DNA of 64,000 nt from positions 27,280,001-27,344,000 of the forward strand of contig NC_043016.1 in NCBI RefSeq assembly GCF_006345805.1. Reading direction: 5' to 3'. Made by a program: the position numbers and the translations under genes. The notes beneath the pieces are model-generated. The model had not been told where the DNA came from. It worked only from the letters and a program-made list of their open reading frames with translations, and searched no databases. Of the stretch, positions 680-58,823 are shown piece after piece (positions within the stretch are counted from its first letter, which is position 1; each line of letters opens with the position of its first letter). This DNA is from Octopus sinensis (lineage: Eukaryota).

Positions 680-1911
680 CTGGGGGTTGGACAAAATAAT
701 GGAAACACCTACAATCATAGCATCATAATTTTGAAATATCTATAAAACCATCAAAAGCTTGTTTGTTTTTATGTTTCTTGATTTATTATTAGTGTTGCTT
801 AATATGTTTTGCTAAAATTACTGTTTCTTTTCAGATATTATCAGAAAAGGGTAATTAAAATTCATTAAAATGACAGATCTATCGAACTTTCAAAGAGGTC
901 AAATTGTTGGTGCTCGTATGCCAGGTGCTAGCATAATGGAAACAGCTGAAATGTTTGGTGCATCAAGAAGTACTGTCTTGAAAGTAATGACAGCCTTTGA
1001 GAAAGAGGGAAGAACCTCCTCATCGACACAAAACTCTGGAAGAAAACCAAACTTTCAGATAGGGACTGTCAGACTCTTATGCGAATTGTTAGGAAGGATC
1101 ACAAAAGTACAGCTCCCAAGATTACTGCAGAGTTTAATGACTACCTCAAGAACCCAGTTTTCACAAAAACTGGAGCTGCACAAAGCCGGATTTCATGGGA
1201 GGGCTGCAAATCAGAAAACCACTACTTTCAAAAAGCAAATGTTGCAAAGCTTTTAGAGTGGAGTAAAAACCTACAGAATTAGTCCCAGAGCAGTGGAAGA
1301 ATGCTATTTTCTCAGAAGAGTCAGCCTTTAACTTATTTCCGACCACCGCTGAGTATACATGTGGAGACAGCCAAAAGAAGCACTTGACCCAGACTGCCTT
1401 CTTCCAAGTGTTAAACATGGAGGAGGATCTGTGATGATCTTGGAAATCCGCCAGACCAATGGTTTCCCTTCATGGTAGAATTAATAGTCAAGACAATTTA
1501 AGCATTTTATCTGATCAAATTCATCCTATGGTTACAGAACTGTTTTTGAAGGGAAACAATCTTTCATAATGATAATGTACCAATTAATACAGCTAAAGTT
1601 GTTACTGAATGGCATGAGGAACATTCTAGTGAAGTTGAACATCTTATCTGGCCACCACAGTCCCCAGATCTCAATATTATTGGAACATTTATGGTGCATT
1701 TTAGAAAAATGAGTAAGGAGTCAATATCCTTCACCATCATCACAACAAGAACTGGAGACTGTTTTAGCAGAAGAATGGACAAAAGTTCCTTTGGAAACAA
1801 TTCAAACTTTGTGTGAGACCATACCTCATAGAATTCAAGGCAGTCCTACCTCATATTAAAATAAATTTGTTTGAAATTTTAAGGAGTGTCTATTATTTTG
1901 TTCAACCCCTG
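680..1911 (+). mobile_element. Tc1-like DNA transposon, decayed
   Basis: TIRs 680-710 (ctgggggttggacaaaataatggaaacacct) and 1882-1911; broken transposase from 870 with HTH (FQRGQIVGAR) and WPPQSPDLNII motif. Confidence 0.9.
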
Positions 1912-5699: not shown

Positions 5700-6830
5700 A
5701 TTAAACATTTTCAAAGATATGAATGAAATATTAATTTTCAAACGATACAAAAATATGGACACCCAAAAGGATTATTTACTATATTCAATATTCGGTGTGA
5801 CTGCCCTTGCTTTCAATGACTGCATTAAGGCATAGAGTCGACTAAATTTCCGCATTTAACCGATGAAATCAACCTCCATTTATCCTGAATGATGTCTTTC
5901 AACTGTGTTATGTTACGGTTTTTTTCTCTTCAACCTTTCTTTTCAAAACACCCCACAGATGTTCCATTGGGTTTAAATCAAGTGACAATGGTAGGTCAAG
6001 GCAATACCTTCACCTTTTTATCTGATAAAAACTTAATCGGCATCTTTGAAGTGTGTTTAGGGTTATTATCATGATGCTTTTCAACATTGTTTTCTGCAAT
6101 ATGTCACAATAAAGTTTTGAATCCATTGTTCTCTCAAAAAATGTGTGTCCTCCCACACCAGGCGCACTCATGCATCCCCAATGCATAACACTTCCGTCGC
6201 CATTTCACGGTAGGCACGGTGCATTTGTCGCTATTATTTTCATCTGGTTGTCGCCATACTCGTTTGACCCAAATCATCTGACCCAAACAAGTTGATTTTA
6301 GTCTCGTCAGAAAAAAAAATTTATTCCCAAACTCCTTCCTCTTACTCTCATAGGCTTCGGCAAAAGAAATACAACATGATTTATGCCTGGCAGTGAGGAG
6401 AGGCTTCCTATGAGAAATGCATCCATGAAAACCACACCGGTTCAAACATCGGCGCACTGTTTGGGTGGATACACCATTTCCACTATCAGAAGATACTTCT
6501 TGGGCCAAAGATGAAGCGGTATGACGCCTGTCGTCCATCACGCAACGTTGGATGTGGCGAATATCATGTGCAGTTAAAATAGAAGGACGACCTGGATGAT
6601 GTTTATTGCTTAGCCATCCAGTAGCTTTGTACTTCTGAATTACTTTGGCAATTGTGTTTACGCTAATATGTATTCGGTTATTAATTAACTTGTATCCTAA
6701 ATAATTCTTGTGCAAATTAAAAATAATTTTCTTCAAATCTTTAGATAATTCTTTTCCTTTTGGTGCCATTTTAATCACAATGAAGAAGATTTTCACCACG
6801 GCACACAAATCAGAATTCCTGCAGATGCAA
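5700..6830 (-). mobile_element. Tc1-like transposase remnant
   Basis: MAPKGKELSKDLKKII HTH, HDNNPKHTS and DLNPMEHLW motifs with frameshifts; TIRs not resolved. Confidence 0.85.
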
Positions 6831-6913
6831 TAACAATGACCGGCACGAAAATGCCAGAAGAAATAATTATTAGAATTGAAATCAGCAGCAAGATATATAT
6901 ATATATATATAGG

Positions 6914-6958
<45 letters not shown>

Positions 6959-7503
6959 TTTGTTGGATTAAATTTGAATATATATATGAGCTGTTGGGCT
7001 AAATTTATATATTGCTTCCACTGCTAGTGATATATCTCTTTTTATAAAAGGCAGATTTTATCTGCCTCCCTTTGTCAGTTATAGAAATCTACAATATAGG
7101 ATTTCTTCAATTACAATTTACCTAGCATTTTTAAGAGTAGAATGCATCGGGTCATGCCAGGTCCAGTTTTTAAAATTTAAACTCCAATTAAGCAAAATTT
7201 ACAGAAAACTCACATTCTGGTGTGTATGTCAAATGCTTTTCTTAATGTGGTTTACACCACACGCACACGCACACACACAGTGTGCAACGAATAAATGAAA
7301 GTAATTCACTGTGTGTTGACAGGTAGACAATAGAATGCGATGGCGATGTAATATTTGTTTCTGTCTATCACGCTGATAGATACATGAGTAAAATGTATAT
7401 GCAAGCTAAGAGATAAGAGTGAGTGAAAATGTTCTTGGAAGAGAGTAAATAGCGAGAGTGATTGGAGGAAGACTTTACATTAAATAACCGTAGTGGCTTG
7501 TAT

Positions 7504-8182: not shown

Positions 8183-8505
8183 ATTGCAGCGTGGAAGGTG
8201 TTTGTAAGCCATTTAAGAAACACACAAAAACCGTTAGATTCACTTCAACATTTAAATTTAATTTGCCAAAATATTTTCCTCGCTTTGAGACCGCGACCTG
8301 TTCACTGACAAAAATATCGTGCTAACAGGTCGCGGTCTCAAAGCGACGAAAATATTTTGACAAATTAAATTAAATGTTGAAGTGAATCTAACGGTTTTTG
8401 TGTGTTTCTTAAATGGCTTATAAACACCTTCAACGCTGCAACTGTTTTCGTTCCAGCACACGATCTCAGATCAAGTCACTTGCTATGCAAGTACATCTCT
8501 GTAAC
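8183..8505. mobile_element. palindromic non-autonomous element, family A (hammerhead-like fold with G3-C8 core)
   Basis: About 130-bp inverted arms within (TA)n; sister copies at 40903-41234 and 47467-47757. Confidence 0.75.
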
Positions 8506-26109: not shown

Positions 26110-28815
26110 TTTTTTTTTTCTTCTTTCAAATTTTCTTCCATTTCTTGCCGAGTGTCTTCCCGACTCCTAGGGCAAAGAAACTCATAGTGTATATTGGTAG
26201 GCCATTAAACCAAACTCAGTAGTTCGTTCATTTTTTTTTTTTTTTTTTTTTTAAAGTTAAATAAAATACATGAGCAGCAACAGTTCTCACATCGACAATG
26301 CTCTTCTCAATACGTGTGATGTACCAGTTAAGACAATCTTTTGCACTTCTTGCAGGGATAGTAAGCCAGGGATCATTCTCATATAATTTTCGGTTCCCTT
26401 CTTGATCATTCCTAGTGCTCCTACGATCACTGGTATTGTAACTGCCTTGAGATGCCACATTTTCTCAATTTCAATGAGTAGGTCCTTATATTTTCTGAGC
26501 TTGTCAAACTCTTTCGCTGAGATATTATGATCACAGGGGATGCTCATGTTGATCAATAAGCAAACTTTATTGTTTTGGTCTTTCACACACATATCTGGTT
26601 TATTGGCCTTGATGGTTCGGTTCTGTATGTACTGGAAAGTCCCACAGAATGGTTACATTTTCTCCTTCAGTTACAGCCTCAGGGTGGTGATTATACCACT
26701 TGTCGGCAGTTTTGATATTGTAATGCCGACTTATTAGCCAGTGGAGATATTGGCCAACTCTGTCATGTCTTAATTTATACTCCACTGGTGCTAAGACTTT
26801 ACATCCAGAGATTAGGTGGTCCACTGTTTCAATCATGTCGTTGCAGAATCGGCATTTTGGGTCTGCTCCATTTTTTATCACATTGGCCTGGTAGTTCCGG
26901 GTTAATAGGCTTTGGTCTTGAGCAGCCAGGATGAAACCTTCGCTCTCTGCTTTTAGCCCTGAGCTCCGCAGCCACTGATGGGTTTGCTTCTGGTCAACAT
27001 CAGCTTGTTTGCTGCGGGTCACATATTTGCCGTGCAGAGGTTTCTCCTCCCACCTATCAGCCAATTGCTCGTGCGCTTTTTTCATTGCCATCATTTTCAC
27101 CTTCTTTGCAACAATAGTTGCCGTACTTCCCTCGGGTTGTTCAGTTTGGGTATCCTGCACGAGATCAATAGCAATTTTTTGCTTTCCTTGATGATAGAAT
27201 GAAGCTTCTTTCGTCTCTCGTGATTTTCCACGAGCTTTAGCATCCAGTCATTCGATATTTCGAGATATTTGGCCAGTCCAATTGTGGTTGTTTTGTAAGC
27301 TAGTTCAAATTGGATCAGGCCTCGACCTCCTTGGGCTCTGGGAAGGTAAAGGCGATCTACGTCTGCCTTTGGGTGGTGCATCCTATTACAACTCAGCAGC
27401 TTGCGTATTTTCCTATCTATATTATTTACTTCACTCATATTCCAGTTCAACACATTGTAGCTATAAGTAACAACTGGAACTGCTAAGGAATTTATAGCTA
27501 ACACCTTGTTACGTGCATTTAGTTCAGATTTCAGGACTGCACGAACTCTCCTATAACATTCCTTCCTGATTTTCTCTTTCATGCTTGCATGCTGAATACC
27601 AGAGCCTTCATTTATCCCTAAATATTTGTATGTTTGTTCTTGCTCAAGCTCTCTTATGACTGTGTCAACATCTAACACGACTGAATTTGTGGTCTTCACT
27701 TTCCCTTTCTGGAAAGTGGCCTTGGCACACTTCTCAAGTCCAAACTCCATCCCGATGTCATCGCTGAATGCTTTCACGGTGCGCAATAGGCCTTCAAGTT
27801 CATTATTGTCTTTACCATAAAGTTTTAAGTCATCCATATAAAATAGATGGCTTATTTTTTTATTGGCAATTTTATACCCATACCCTGTTCTGTTTAATTC
27901 ACTTGTAAGGGGTATTAGGGCTATGCAGAATATTAAAGGTGAAAGTGAGTCACCTTGAAAAATTCCACAGTTGATGTTTATATTTTCTGAGGCAAGTACT
28001 CCATTAGAGTGGTATAATTGGAGATTCGTATTCCACAACGACATATTGTGCTTCAGGAAGTTTGAAATCACAGGGGAAATTTTGAAGATGTCCAGCGATC
28101 TCAAGATCCATGGATGCGGTATACTGTCGAAGGCCTTTTTATAGTCAATCCATGCGGTGCTGAGATTTCTGCGCTTGTTGTAACAGTTCTCAAGGATCAT
28201 ACGATTGATTAGCAGTTGATCTTTGCATCCGTAAGAGCCTCGGCGGCACCCTTTTTGTTCAATGGGGAAAATATCGTTCTTCTCCATGAATGCATATGTT
28301 TTCTCCGCCAGGATAGATGTTAGGATTTTATACGTGGTGGATAGACAGGTTATAGGCCGATAGTTTTTTGGAAGGTTGGTTTCGTTATTCTTTGGGAGTA
28401 GGTAAGTAATGCCACTTGCTAACCATTCAGGTGTTTTCTTTGGGTCTCTCATAATTCCATTGAGCAGCTGAACTAGCTTACCGTGTGCGCACGGGAGCGA
28501 TGCGAGCCAGAATTCGGCCCTATCTTTACCGGGGGATTTCCAATTATGGGCCTTCGTGAGTGCCTTTCTTAGGTCTGCTATTGTGATGTCTTCCCATGCT
28601 TGTTGTTGTAAATTTTGGTAGGATCCTTCAGTTTGTATAATCCAGTCTGCATTTATGTTGTACGTCTTCTTGTCACTCAAATCCTTTTCCAAAAGTTTTG
28701 AACTTCTTCCATGGGAGGGGGGTCTTTGACGGTTACTTTCTCCTTCCCTATTTCTCTGTAGAATTTTTTGGCATTGGATGTGAACAGCTTATTTTGCTTG
28801 TAAAACTTGTTTCTC

Positions 28816-28897
<82 letters not shown>

Positions 28898-30830
28898 GAT
28901 TACTGTATCTAGTGATAATACAAACTAAATTATTCAAAACCATGATTATTTTTAAGCTCTGTCCAATCTCCCATTGGTGGTATGCGCATATTAGACGAAA
29001 GGAAGATGTTGTAGGATTTAAAAAATTTTTTTTTTTGCAAAACTGTGTCCAGTAGCTATCTCGAGTATTTTGTCGAGGGCTGTATTTTTCGCACCGTGTT
29101 ATTAACGCCCTAAGATACCGTCCAAACAGCTTACACTTTCTAAGGCTTCTGACAGTGAACCTAAGCGCCAGAAAAAGGGTGTGATGCCCCATGAGAAGGT
29201 ACAACTGCTGGTTATGTTCCAGGAAAGTAAAAATTATCCTGCAGTAGGTCGCTGTTATGATGTCAACGAAAGCACTATACACTACATAGAGAAGAACGAG
29301 GTAGCGATCAGGTCTACCGTAGCAGTAAGTTTCTGTGAAAGTGCCAAAAAGATAACAACAGTGAGAAAAAGGCATTTGGTCAGAATGGAATCTACCTTGG
29401 CAATGTGGACTAGTAACTGCAAGAAGAAAAACATTCTCTTAAATGATAACATCATCCGCGAGAAAGTGCGGAAATTCGACAGAAGAGAGGGAGCAGAAGG
29501 CATCGAAGAACTACAACCAAAACCATTGATAGCACTGGAGCCCAAAGATTTTCAAGCCAGCAAGGGATGGTTTGGCCGTTTCCAGAAACGGTTTAAAATA
29601 AAGTGTGTTTCCCTGTATGGAGAGACAGCATCAGCCGATAAAAAAGCCGCCGAGAAGTACCTTGAGACCTTCAGGAAGATCATCGAGGACAAGAGATACA
29701 AGCCCGGACAGGTTTTCAATATGGACGAGACTGGCTTGTTCTGGAAGAAGATACCTTCCAGAACCTACATCATGAAGGACGAAGTCAGAGCCCCGGGATT
29801 TAAGGCACAGAGGCGACGCTAATTATGTGTGGCAATGCTGCTGGCTTCATGATGAAACCAGGACTTATCTACAAGTCCGCGAACCCGAGGGCCTCCAAAA
29901 ATAAGAATAAAAACCTTCTGCCTGTCTACTGGATGCACAACTGCAAGGCCTGGATAATCAAAAGTCTTACTTTGAATTGGTTCCACCAATGCTTCATCTC
30001 TCAAGCCAAGGAGTACCTCCAAAACATATGCATGGAATTCAAGGTGTTGCTGGTTATGGATAATGCTGGTGGTCACTCTTTGTATTTGAATCATGAGGGG
30101 GTCCAAGTCGAGTTCCTCTCTGCTAACACCATCTCCCTCATCCAGGCGTGATTCGTGCTTTCAAGACACTTTACAATCGGATCTCTTTCCAACACCTTGT
30201 GGACACAATGGATTCGAACGAGAATTTCAAGTTAAAGGAGTACTGGCGTAACTTCACGATCGCAACATGCCTGTCAGTCATCGATGCTACTCTTAAAGAC
30301 ATGAAAAAAGGAAGCCCTCATCGCTTGCTGAAAGAAGGTGAGGCCAGAGTGTGTCCAGGACTACGAGGGCTTCACACCTGAAGATATTCAGCACGAGGCT
30401 GTCAACAATGCGGTGAAACTGGCAAAGGTACCTGGAGGCAAAGGTTTTGATGACGTCATGCAAGATGAGGTCAACATTCTTATCGATACCCACTCTGAAA
30501 CCCTGACAAACGAATATTTGTTGGAGTTAACTAAATCTGCTAGGGAAGAGGAGGAAGCGCCAGATCCAGAGAATGAGGTGGGCCTGACAATCGAACGTCT
30601 GTCCAACCTTTTAAGGTCAGCAAAGGAATTGCAAGGGAAGACGTTCAGCCTATCCAATTTAAAAATTACATCGATGCGTCCATGCAGACATATAAAACTT
30701 TCCTCTCCACCATGGAGAAACAGTGACAGTAACTTCTCATCACTTCCTCAAAACCCACCAAGAAAGTCACGAAGGAAGATACGACATCTAAAATACTTAA
30801 TGAAGAGGCGTCACCCGAAGAACTTTAATC
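25831..30830 (+). mobile_element. Tigger/pogo-like DNA transposon (transposase 29181-30780), interrupted by the Dong LINE
   Basis: CENP-B HTH FQASKGWFGRFQKRF; DDE motifs VFNMDETGLFWK and LLVMDNAGGH; candidate left end with ttattcgc repeats at 25831-25895; right TIR not found. Confidence 0.8.
26110..28817 (-). mobile_element. 5'-truncated R4/Dong-clade non-LTR retrotransposon (RT + CCHC + restriction-like endonuclease)
   Basis: GIFQGDSLSPL, YMDD, CRFC..ETVDHLISGC, RHD, KPD motifs across ORFs 27097-28692, 26600-27160, 26287-26592; (TAA)n on both flanks. Confidence 0.92.
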
Positions 30831-30939
30831 TTTGCTGCAGTCATTATCTTCATTATTTCTTATCATTACTTTAAATCAATATCATTCATTATTGGTGAAT
30901 AACCGTACATTTTACTTTATTTTTATTAAATTATTATTA

Positions 30940-37555: not shown

Positions 37556-37654
37556 GTTGCTGCTGCTATAGAGGTTGTCAGGTTTGCTGCTGCGGACGTT
37601 AGGGCAGCTGTTGGTAATGCTGCTGCTTGTTGTTGTTGTTGTTGTTGCTGCTGC

Positions 37655-37686
<32 letters not shown>

Positions 37687-37702
37687 TTGTTGTTGTTGCT
37701 GC

Positions 37703-37782
<80 letters not shown>

Positions 37783-37831
37783 TTGTTGCTGCTGTTGTTG
37801 TTGCTGTTGTTGTTGTTGCTGTTGTTGCTGC

Positions 37832-37887
<56 letters not shown>

Positions 37888-38016
37888 TTGTTGTTGCTGT
37901 TGTTGCTGCTGCTATAGAGGTTGTCAGGTTTCCTGCTGCGGACGTTAGGGCAGCTGTTGGTAATGCTGCTGCTTGTTGTTGTTGTTGTTGTTGTTGCTGC
38001 TGTTGTTGTTGCTGCG

Positions 38017-38047
<31 letters not shown>

Positions 38048-38157
38048 TTGCTGCTGTTGTTGTTGCTGTTGTTGCTGCTGCTATAGAGGTTGTCAGGTTT
38101 CCTGCTGCGGACGTTAGGGCAGCTGTTGGTAATGCTGCTGCTTGTTGTTGTTGTTGT

Positions 38158-38219
<62 letters not shown>

Positions 38220-38280
38220 TTGCTGCTGTTGTTGTTGCTGTTGTTGTTGCTGCTGCTACTGCTGCTGCTGCTGCTGCTGC

Positions 38281-38316
<36 letters not shown>

Positions 38317-38346
38317 CGTCGTCGTCGTTGTTGTTGTTGTTGTTGT
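37556..38346. repeat. (GCT/GTT)n trinucleotide array with a ~60-bp spacer present 3 times
   Basis: ctatagaggttgtcaggttt...ggtaatgctgctgctt at about 37567, 37911 and 38080. Confidence 0.95.
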
Positions 38347-39915
38347 TAAGCAACAAGACGGGTAAGGGTGATTAGGTGATGGCCTAGGGTTTAGGGACGG
38401 GAAACCCCAGACCTTGGAAAAAAAAACTTTCGTCGTCTTGTTGTAGTCGAGGGCTCTTCGTTGACGCCCGACACCACTGGGAGGTGGCCCTCGAAGTCGC
38501 TGCAAATGGAGATCTCCAGGTCCAAATTCTTAGACGGCTGCTGCTGATAATAGTGATGTTGCTGTTGTTACTGCTGTCGATGCTGTCGATGCTGTCGAGA
38601 GAATTGCCAATGGCTGTCGCTGGTACTTTATTGTTATTGTTGCTAATGTTGTTAACCGTGGCGATGGTGGCGGTGTTGCTAGTTCTGTTCTCGTGTCTTC
38701 GGCTGCTACTGCTTCTACCGGTGGTATTGCCAGGGTTTGCTGGCTTTGGCTTCATAGATGACCCTTTTGGTTTCGCAGTGGCCTCCCACCGGGCAGCTGT
38801 TGCGGTCTCTGCATGAACATCCTGCCTCTTCCTGTGGTTTAGGGGCGCTAACTAGGATGCCCTTAATATTGAGGGCACAGCTAAACGAGACACGAACGTT
38901 GTGCCTGTTGAAGGCGGCGAGCTGGCAGAAACGTTAGCACGCCGGACGAAATGCTTATCTAATAATTTAAGGAATATTCTACCCACGTGTGATTTTTATT
39001 AAGAGAGAAGGGGTTGAACCAAATGATATTTCTGCAGCGCTTTCTTCTCCGATTATTGGGTTCCGGTATGAAGGAATCCACTGGCAGCTAGGTCCCCGTT
39101 ATAGTACGGGGCCGTTGCGTCGAAAACCTCTTGGTTGAATGAAAGGATCGTGATATTTTTACTAACACCCTTCACCAGATTTTTGAAAATGATGGGTGGG
39201 TGGTAGGAGACTGTGGTGATGTATGTTAACCACTCGTTCGGTTTGCGGTAGGGCCTGTACCAAAGCCGAAGTCGAGCGTAACATCGAAGTCCGCGGTTGT
39301 GAGGTTGGTCTCTATGGTGATTTTTGATCCCATGGAGGCAAGCGTGCTGATTAAGTCTTTTCTAAGCCTGTCTAGTGTATGCCCGTTTTCCCCCTAGAGA
39401 TGGCCAGGGCGTTATCTCTGTAGAGGCTAAAGAAAACAGAGGGGAACTTTTCTTAAGGATATCGAGGATATATAACCCGATGAGGTCGCATACGTCAGCT
39501 CTGTCGAAGGCTCCCAACGCTACGTCAAAGGAGCCTGTGGGGTCGGATTGCTTGACCCATGCCGAACCTTTGTTGAACAGCACTGTCTTTCTGGCATACA
39601 TAATGACTTCTATATCTCTGTCGCTAAAGTTAGTGAAGCCCCTAGCGAAAGCAAACACCTTTATCAGTCCTTTTGATATAGATGAGTAAAAGTCGACTAT
39701 ATCAATTTGAGTGAACCTTGCTCTGCCGCTTCCCTTGATGGTGCTGAACCATGAGGCCCTCCTTATGTCGTTACTGGTTACCTTGAGTAGTGAGGCATTT
39801 CCTCCATATTTTTAAGAGGTCTTGGGTCCACAGGTTTTTGGGATCTGACGCACACCATAAAGCTAAACTCTTTATGGATAGGAAACTAAGGTAATCTCAT
39901 AAACCGGTCTTCCTC

Positions 39916-40637: not shown

Positions 40638-40902
40638 AATATATATATTATATATATATATGTGTGTGTGTATAATATATATATATATATATATGAAAAA
40701 ACAAGTCAAGTAGAAAATGCTAAAATAATTTATAAAGAACATTTCTGTACCGGTTTCGGTCATTTTGAGACCTTTTCAACTGTAACGATTAAATAATTAA
40801 ATTTAGAAAAATTAAAAGAAAAGTTTTTTTGAAAGGAATATTTGTATAGTGTTCAAATATAAGTGGCATTCTGCCTTTCTCTGTCTCGTAATATATATAT
40901 AT

Positions 40903-41234
40903 TACGGAGATGTACTTGCATAGCAAGTGACTTGATCTGAGATTGTGTGCTGGAACGAAAACAATTGCAGCATGGAAGGTGTTTATAAGTCATTTAAGAA
41001 ACACACAAAACCGTTAGATTCACTTCAACATTTAAACCTAATTTGTCAAAATATTTTCGTCGCTTTGAGACCGCAACTGTTCACTGACAAAATTTCGTGC
41101 TGCATCAGCTTTGTCAGTGAACAGGTCGCGGTCTCAAAGCGACGAAAATATTTGACAAATTGAATTTAAATGTTGAAGTAAATCTAACGGTTTTGTCTTA
41201 AATGGCTTATAAACACCTTCCACGCTGCAATTGT
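40903..41234. mobile_element. palindromic element family A with motifs on both strands
   Basis: Motifs at 41042-41091 (-) and 41110-41159 (+). Confidence 0.75.
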
Positions 41235-41266
<32 letters not shown>

Positions 41267-47466: not shown

Positions 47467-47757
47467 AATTGCAGCGTGGAAGGTGTTTGTAAGCCATTTA
47501 AGAAACACACAAAAGCCGTTCGATTCACTTCAACATTTAAGTTTAATTTGTCAAAATATTTTCGTCGCTAAAATCCGCGACCTGTTCACTGACAAAAATC
47601 CGTGCTGCTGCATCTAAGATTAAACTTAAATATTGAAGTGAATCGAACGGCTTTTGTGTGTTTCTTAAATGGCTTACAAACACCTTCCACGCTGCAATTG
47701 TTTTCGTTTCAGCACACGATCTCAGATCAAATCACTTGCTATGCGATTACATCTACG
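47467..47757. mobile_element. palindromic element family A
   Basis: Motif at 47547-47596 (-); stem II loop differs but stem is kept. Confidence 0.75.
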
Positions 47758-58457: not shown

Positions 58458-58823
58458 TCTCTTTTACTCTTTTACTCTTTTATTTGTTTCAGTCATTTGA
58501 CTGTGGCCATGCTGAAGCACCGCCTTTATAGTTGAGCAAATCGATCCCAGATCTTAGTCTTTGTAAGCCTAGTACTTATTCTATCAGTCTCTTTTGTCGA
58601 ACCGCTAAGTTATGGGGACGTAAAGACACCAGCATCAGTTGTCAAGCGATGCTGAGGGAACAAACACAGACATATACACGCACATACATATATATATGGT
58701 GTAATGGTTAGCACTCTGGACTTTGAATCCAGCGATCCGAGTTCAAATCTCGGTGAGACCTAAGAGTGTTACTTTTTTAGCATGGAAAGCGGACGTTAAA
58801 CGATGATGATGATGATGATGATG

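What the first reader, a model, noticed from the sequence alone, without database searches (positions are those of the whole stretch)
41042..41159. Family A hammerhead uses a swapped G3-C8 core (GUGAACA) and occurs on both strands
Seen on + strand: TTTGTCA-GTGAACA-G-GTCGC-GGTCTCAAA-GCGAC-GAAA-ATATT-TGACAAA. The same fold occurs at 41042-41091(-), 8262-8312(-) and 47547-47596(-). In the last copy the stem II loop is GGATTTTA but the stem is unchanged, and several other changes give G-U pairs. Established: C3-G8 is a Watson-Crick tertiary pair in the hammerhead core, and a double swap can restore activity. Inference: a natural compensatory variant, invisible to CUGANGA searches, with an unusual UUU/AUU cleavage triplet.
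Basis: partly seen in the sequence, partly recalled or inferred. Interest (0 to 1): 0.8.

Follow-up and report, generated by a model that had tools for sequence, protein, structure and literature searches.

The report
Swapped-core hammerhead in Penelope-like retrotransposon
A hammerhead-shaped RNA motif in the tail of a jumping gene, present in about 5,000 copies in this animal genome, has two paired core letters swapped (G3-C8 instead of C3-G8) while a sister element keeps the usual pair, so it is likely a natural, weakly self-cutting variant that standard searches miss, though cutting is untested.

Summary
Observation confirmed. Four copies have the GUGAACA core and a type I fold; two carry defects. 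The motif is the minimal hammerhead of a Penelope-like retrotransposon (PLE). It lies about 1 kb behind a 1042-codon RT + GIY-YIG reading frame.

The genome holds 4,982 exact G3-C8 copies, and 33 of 36 endonuclease-linked copies are G3-C8. A sister PLE family (54% protein identity) has C3-G8 in the same scaffold, and other local hammerheads have U3-A8. The swap therefore looks compensatory between families.

'Both strands' is the usual inverted PLE insertion, and U17 occurs in 24 of 56 published minimal hammerheads.

Against activity: among copies, positions 3 and 8 are not protected. G3·G8 is about 20-fold over control, and copies do not start at the cleavage site.

Lab double swaps partly rescue cleavage, also in a PLE hammerhead. 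I found no natural G3-C8 in seven paper searches, but the key survey (Lünse 2017) was not held. This scan noted G3-C8 before in phages and protist PLEs; I recovered one phage case. New variant of a known kind; cleavage untested.

The parts
41110..41159 (+). Minimal type I hammerhead: stem I 41110-41116/41153-41159, core G3 41117 to A9 41123 (C8 41122), extra G 41124, stem II 41125-41143, GAAA 41144-41147, U17 41152 (predicted cut after it); one U shorter than most copies
41042..41091 (-). Second hammerhead copy (G3 41084, C8 41079); lacks the extra G, one U-G pair in stem II
40902..41105 (-). 5'-truncated PLE 3' end, long form: includes the 58-nt tail (40902-40959), which in tandem copies is the start of the reading frame
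41107..41235 (+). 5'-truncated PLE 3' end, short form without tail, followed by (TA)n; start codon of the PLE frame at 41202; joined head to head with the minus arm
8262..8312 (-). Hammerhead copy (G3 8305, C8 8300) with broken 10.1-11.1 pair and a U-G pair in stem I
8184..8505 (.). Inverted pair of the same element: minus arm with short end, plus arm 8324-8505 starting inside the core and carrying the tail; the same junction recurs at three other loci
47547..47596 (-). Intact hammerhead of the younger subfamily (loop GGAUUUUA; G3 47589, C8 47584), identical in core and stems to the copy behind the 1042-codon frame of L123
47465..47759 (.). Inverted pair: minus arm with hammerhead and short end, plus arm starting behind the hammerhead and carrying the tail, between (TA)n runs

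Best explanation
The motif is the minimal type I hammerhead in the terminal repeat of a Penelope-like retrotransposon, and its G3-C8 core is likely a compensated swap that would keep weak self-cleavage, predicted to need a dimer or the element's own protein. Shown: it lies on the sense strand about 0.9-1.1 kb behind an RT + GIY-YIG frame and about 50 nt before the next frame's start codon; all other core letters are standard; a sister family has C3-G8 in the same scaffold. Inferred: G3 and C8 form the tertiary Watson-Crick pair that positions the 2'-OH at position 8; two motifs pair through the AAUAUU palindrome to build stem III; the cut falls after U17 in tandem transcripts. The window's copies are truncated retrocopies, reverse-transcribed from uncut RNA. 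In the 41042/41110 pair the arms would form one long hairpin that masks both motifs, so these copies are probably inert where they lie.
For: PLE link: RT and GIY-YIG remnants upstream of long copies; 1042-codon frame in L123 with the motif 0.9 kb behind it; tail running on into the frame in L125 and L129. Fixation: 4,982 of 5,463 copies of the 21-mer class are G3-C8; 33 of 36 endonuclease-linked copies, and 29 of 30 in the young clade with support 98/96. Covariation between families: the sister family at 54% identity has C3-G8 with the same GUC..GAC stem II, extra G and U17; among 19 other descriptor hits in my loci, 8 are U3-A8 and 6 are C3-G8, against 1 and 0 in three shuffles. Core constraint: A6 is changed in 29 copies against 86 at the free position 7 (p = 1e-7); downstream A sites change at 17 of 972, like position 7. 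Common variants fall in loop II or keep a U-G pair in stem I. If two changes hit 11 core positions at random, landing on 3 and 8 as a Watson-Crick pair has a chance of about 1/55 x 1/3 = 0.006 (my post hoc arithmetic). Lab C3G/G8C partly restores cleavage, also in a PLE hammerhead, which needs the PLE protein. One complete G3-C8 hammerhead in a phage contig (L369): 1 of 22 matches, against 0 of 41 for the G3·G8 control.
Against: No cleavage data. Among copies, positions 3 and 8 are not protected: G3 is changed in about 3% and C8 in 5.9%, against 3.7% (18/486) and 3.0% (13/439) for downstream non-CpG G and C. C8-to-G is about 140 copies (45 of the first 100 listed, of 311) against 7 at a control C, and occurs on every subfamily background. 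Two endonuclease-linked older copies are G3·G8. 5' ends show no peak at the cleavage site: 4 of 44 against 3.1 expected. The between-family swap is a single event on one long branch. The AAUAUU duplex is barely stable, -0.2 kcal/mol. No locus I examined showed two intact same-strand motifs flanking one full frame. Published minimal PLE hammerheads cleave poorly even with the standard core, and cleavage was dispensable for insertion in vitro. The A6-A7 contrast could partly reflect sequence context.
Confidence: 0.62

Rival explanations
1. A hammerhead descendant that no longer cuts to a useful degree. The fold is kept as a structural or protein-binding element beside the start codon and the RT start sites, or simply hitchhikes, and G3-C8 is a tolerated historical accident.
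For: Positions 3 and 8 vary at or above background, with a G3·G8 excess. No cleavage footprint in 5' ends. Hammerhead mutants did not affect insertion of an anole PLE in vitro. Naiad PLEs spread without canonical hammerheads. The sister family departs from the core at A9.
Against: All other core letters are unchanged across subfamilies about 15% apart in endonuclease DNA. A6 is depleted relative to A7. The double change is exactly the rescuing pair. All three pairs C-G, U-A and G-C occur in this genome and mismatches are rare among other families.
Confidence: 0.28
2. The letters at 3 and 8 are fixed by an overlapping signal (a short upstream frame, a splice or promoter element near the acceptor-like site) and the pairing is a coincidence.
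For: A branch-point and acceptor-like CTAAC..TTTCTCAG followed by ATG lies 14 nt before stem I; 91 of 282 copy starts fall 12-20 nt before stem I.
Against: That ATG frame is 22 codons in the older subfamily and 7 in the younger (read), so no conserved peptide. The PLE frame starts behind the motif. The spliced junction I guessed is absent from the genome.
Confidence: 0.07
3. A palindromic MITE-like repeat whose resemblance to a hammerhead is chance.
For: The window copies are short inverted pairs in (TA)n; one inverted unit recurs as a whole; Rfam finds no hammerhead.
Against: Arms are unequal, with a tail at one end only, the PLE signature. The motif is linked to RT-endonuclease frames. The sister PLE has a C3-G8 hammerhead at the same place. 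Shuffles give no comparable hit.
Confidence: 0.03

Closest known systems
Minimal type I hammerheads of Penelope-like elements (Cervera and de la Pena 2014, PMC4209133)
   Same: Position in the PLE terminal repeat; extra nucleotide between 9 and 10.1; G10.1-C11.1; palindromic, nearly absent stem III; U17 common; opposite-strand pairs; thousands of solo truncated copies; 3/8 covariation known as U3-A8.
   Different: G3-C8 core, seen in none of the 56 rows of their Fig. S3; the extra letter is G (their consensus H; one row has G); stem I is 7 bp rather than 4-5.
Hammerhead of the anole Poseidon element PAc (Frangieh et al. 2024, PMC11167929)
   Same: PLE hammerhead near the start codon; two 3' ends producing an optional tail; no RNA ends at the cut site in public data; engineered C3G/G8C partly active.
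   Different: There the swap is engineered and the wild type is C3-G8; the frame starts inside the PAc hammerhead but about 50 nt behind this one; this protein has a Cx3CxxC linker, typical of Neptune/Nematis rather than Poseidon.
Natural core variants of hammerheads (Perreault et al. 2011, PMC3088659)
   Same: Natural covariation of the 3-8 pair.
   Different: The passages read report U3-A8 only.
EN+ PLEs of the Neptune/Nematis type (Craig et al. 2021, PMC8557442)
   Same: RT, CX2-5CxxC linker, C-terminal GIY-YIG, inverted 5'-truncated copies, tail at one end, microsatellite targets.
   Different: Clade not placed by a tree here; tail 58 nt rather than 30-40; hammerhead core swapped.

Membership tests
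Hammerhead ribozyme (type I) | Core U4 G5 A6, A9, G12 A13 A14, A15.1-U16.1, H17 | tested here: met
   All present in the four copies; H17 = U
Hammerhead ribozyme (type I) | C3 and G8 identity (CUGANGA) | tested here: not met
   G3 and C8 in 4,982 exact copies; no C3-G8 among the first 100 of 170 non-G3 copies listed
Hammerhead ribozyme (type I) | Watson-Crick complementarity of positions 3 and 8 | tested here: met
   G-C here, C-G in the sister family, U-A in others; within the family the pair is not protected above background
Hammerhead ribozyme (type I) | Stems I and II around the core | tested here: met
   7 and 5 bp, minimum-energy fold; the 8262 copy has a broken closing pair
Hammerhead ribozyme (type I) | Stable stem III as a monomer | tested here: not met
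   At most 2 bp; self-complementary AAUAUU, duplex -0.2 kcal/mol, as in dimer-type minimal hammerheads
Hammerhead ribozyme (type I) | Self-cleavage after N17 | not testable with these tools
   Only contigs were available; genomic 5' ends show no peak at the site
Hammerhead ribozyme (type I) | Match to an Rfam hammerhead model | tested here: not met
   None at E<=10; the C3-G8 sister also fails
Minimal PLE hammerhead | Sense-strand position in the terminal repeat of a PLE | tested here: met
   0.5-2.4 kb, mostly 0.9-1.1 kb, behind the endonuclease in 36 copies
Minimal PLE hammerhead | Extra nucleotide 9/10.1, G10.1-C11.1, palindromic loop III | tested here: met
   features as listed
EN+ Penelope-like element | One frame with RT and C-terminal GIY-YIG | tested here: met
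   1042 open codons in L123; GIY-YIG PF01541, 23.6 bits against cut-off 22.6, on a subfamily copy; the RT fragment had no Pfam hit and is read from its motifs (YVDD) and homologs
EN+ Penelope-like element | Partial tandem or inverted 5'-truncated copies, tail at one end, (TA)n targets | tested here: met
EN+ Penelope-like element | Intron in the terminal repeat | tested here: inconclusive
   Acceptor-like site present; guessed spliced junction not found
Neptune or Nematis clade | CX2-5CxxC linker between RT and endonuclease | tested here: met
   CQSNCAVC in L123; definition
Neptune or Nematis clade | Placement on an RT tree with reference elements | not tested

The most novel reading that the evidence does not exclude
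G3-C8 is a working third natural form of the hammerhead core, selected in a successful PLE lineage as a slow, protein-switched cutter. The recurrent G3·G8 copies record the unpaired intermediate of the swap, and retroelement families now described as lacking hammerheads may carry swapped cores that CUGANGA searches cannot see.
Probability: 0.25. Interest if true: 0.7.

Novelty: new variant of a known kind. Interest (0 to 1): 0.45.

Why it matters
C3 and G8 are treated as fixed in hammerhead searches; Craig et al. used the string cuganga. A G3-C8 core in about 5,000 copies of an element with a long open frame would widen the natural core to three pairs and would mean that censuses undercount. 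It also offers a natural experiment on the open question of what PLE hammerheads do: one genome holds related elements with G3-C8, C3-G8 and G3·G8 cores. The step is modest, because PLE hammerheads, natural U3-A8 and the lab G3-C8 rescue are all in print.

Tried and rejected
Rfam, gathering and E-value modes: no hammerhead; only microRNA-precursor matches to the long hairpin, far below their cut-offs.

RNA evidence: no RNA holder on record was listed; 14 holders are guessed RNA. Contigs cover the motif but show no ends, strand or splice joint. Not used for or against.

A dedicated G3·G8 sublineage (loop GGUCUUAUA): rejected, 99 of the first 100 of 308 copies are G3-C8.

G3·G8 as an ancestral state: the tree leaves the older copies unresolved. 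One recurring inverted unit has C8 in two loci and G8 in one, which favours repeated origin.

Spliced junction with the guessed donor: 0 matches.

Cleavage footprint in 5' ends: none (double-counted copies, one search is the corrected count).

Viral contigs with this family's exact context: none of 61 matches folds convincingly as a hammerhead. The GCC context gave one weak fold, in two contigs, among 70 matches.

One search lists no variant at the core, but the genome counts show such variants exist, so that blank was not used.

A fuzzy-match script timed out. Papers not held: Lünse et al. 2017 and Przybilski and Hammann 2007.

Full report
OBSERVATION. The same fold is at 41042-41091(-), 8262-8312(-) and 47547-47596(-). 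A descriptor free at positions 3 and 8 found three of them in the window and nothing else; the 8262 copy fails because C11.1 is G. Stems I (7 bp) and II (5 bp) are the predicted fold. The 41042 copy lacks the extra G, and the 41110 copy is one U short in loop III, so 47547 is the only flawless window copy.

WHAT IT BELONGS TO. The window lies in an animal genome of 2.7 Gb; the best named protein hit is from Octopus vulgaris, 54% identical, so a cephalopod is likely. The motif is part of a 200-nt repeat end. Following longer copies upstream led to GIY-YIG and RT remnants, then to long frames. L123 holds 1042 open codons with RT motifs, a CQSNCAVC linker and a C-terminal endonuclease, and the G3-C8 motif lies 0.9 kb behind the stop on the same strand. 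In L125 and L129 a truncated upstream repeat runs through its 58-nt tail into the N-terminal frame, which begins at an ATG about 50 nt behind the hammerhead. Copies end either about 33 or about 92 nt into that frame, which matches the two RT start sites and optional tail described for the anole element. This is an EN+ Penelope-like element of Neptune/Nematis type by its linker; I did not place it on a reference tree.

WHY BOTH STRANDS. Each window locus is a head-to-head pair of 5'-truncated copies, with a tail on one arm only, in (TA)n. That is the standard PLE insertion. A transcript across 40960-41236 folds into one hairpin of -179.5 kcal/mol, which would mask both motifs.

EVIDENCE FOR A COMPENSATED SWAP. 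Exact 21-mer counts: G3-C8 4,982; G3 with another letter at 8, 311; another letter at 3, 170. Of 60 loci examined, 36 had a long endonuclease match with a linked motif; 33 are G3-C8, one G3·G8, one A3-U8, one deleted. A further G3·G8 copy has a shorter match. The young clade is 29 of 30 G3-C8; some rows are near-duplicates. The sister family, 54% identical over 814 residues, has CUGAUGC-G, that is C3-G8 with C at 9, the same GUC..GAC stem II with a G-C to A-U change, and U17. Among 19 further descriptor hits in 293 sequences (1.14 Mb), 8 are U3-A8, 6 C3-G8, 1 A3-U8 and 4 mismatched; three shuffles gave 8 hits in all. I did not test whether those other hits belong to PLEs. The essential A6 is changed in 29 copies, the free position 7 in 86, and downstream A sites change like position 7 (17 of 972). 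In four other public data sets, labelled as four organisms, the common variants lie at CpG sites, in loop II, or turn a stem I pair into U-G.

EVIDENCE AGAINST. Positions 3 and 8 are no better kept than downstream G and C. C8-to-G is about 140 copies by extrapolation from 45 of the first 100 listed, against 7 for a stem I C. It appears on all subfamily backgrounds (43 G8 copies against 24 C8 copies), on somewhat older copies (4.7% against 2.8% downstream divergence), and is not one sublineage. I cannot explain it: a mutation hotspot, recombination between sources and a relic intermediate all remain open. Of 44 copies that start inside or behind the core, 4 start within 3 nt of the predicted cut, against 3.1 expected, so insertions derive from uncut RNA. 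The swap between families is one event.

LITERATURE, AND WHAT I SAW. Cervera and de la Pena 2014 (PMC4209133): parts 1-2 of 4 of the text and parts 1-2 of 3 of supplement 2; supplement 1 was not searchable. It reports minimal PLE hammerheads, U3-A8 and low activity. In Fig. S3 I count U17 in 24 of 56 rows and no G3-C8. Frangieh 2024 (PMC11167929): parts 1-2 of 4; single C3G or G8C abolish cleavage, the double partly restores it, cleavage needs the protein and is dispensable for insertion. Passages only: Perreault 2011, Kalweit and Hammann 2013, PMC6765202, PMC8495972, PMC10085705, PMC6155905, PMC6257768 (a reference title only). Craig 2021: passages, one section and a supplement search. The 2026 retrozyme preprint: part 1 of 5. 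Searches showed no natural G3-C8 hammerhead. Lünse 2017, the largest survey of PLE-linked variants, and Przybilski and Hammann 2007 were not held; the former or its supplements could already list this core. Position numbering and the role of the 2'-OH at position 8 are established knowledge.

EARLIER NOTES OF THIS SCAN. None on this sequence or genome. Seven notes describe G3-C8 cores in phages and protist PLEs. As a partial check I scanned viral contigs and found one complete type I G3-C8 hammerhead in a 169.7-kb contig among 22 matches, and none among 41 G3·G8 control matches.

VERDICT. The feature is real. It works like, and by all structural tests but the C3/G8 letters is, a minimal PLE hammerhead; that it cleaves is inferred at about 0.6. 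New variant of a known kind.

Noticed in passing
G000, family-wide; e.g. L055, L078, L086, L101: About 140 copies have G3·G8, roughly 20 times the C-to-G rate at a control C, on every subfamily background; unexplained.
   Followed up: partly
L012, L031-L043, 14 nt before stem I: Branch-point and acceptor-like CTAAC..TTTCTCAG followed by ATG; 91 of 282 copy starts fall 12-20 nt before stem I, but the guessed spliced junction was not found.
   Followed up: partly
window 8184-8505; L304, L309, L313: The same inverted junction recurs at four loci, so the whole palindromic unit seems to have been copied as one piece.
   Followed up: partly
L130:7868, L131, L132, L133, L134, L135: The sister PLE family's hammerhead has C instead of A at position 9 (CUGAUGC-G) and frames of up to 1120 open codons.
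   Followed up: partly
L196 (two hits 363 nt apart), L201 (two hits 504 nt apart): Tandem hammerheads with U3-A8 and C3-G8 cores, spaced like retrozyme repeats.
   Followed up: no
L194 (G000:C2:152761480): An endonuclease-linked copy with A3-U8, the fourth Watson-Crick pair; 2 of the first 100 non-G3 copies listed, about chance level.
   Followed up: partly
L369 (169.7-kb viral contig, 98395-98549): Complete type I hammerhead with G3-C8 and a long stem III.
   Followed up: partly
window 39362-39811(-): Degenerate RT of another PLE, 41% identical over 118 residues to a 662-codon frame in L087 that has a DKT motif (Hydra-like); no similarity to the family studied here.
   Followed up: partly
window 26287-28788(-): Broken non-LTR retrotransposon with a 563-codon RT stretch; label from recalled motifs.
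   Followed up: no
window 37607-38347: Long (TGC)n triplet array, about 220 copies.
   Followed up: no
window 58695-58755(+): tRNA match with anticodon UUG, 48.8 bits.
   Followed up: no
window 855-1256(+), 6134-6967(-), 29106-30874(+): Remnants that look like Tc1/mariner and pogo-type transposases; labels recalled, not tested.
   Followed up: no
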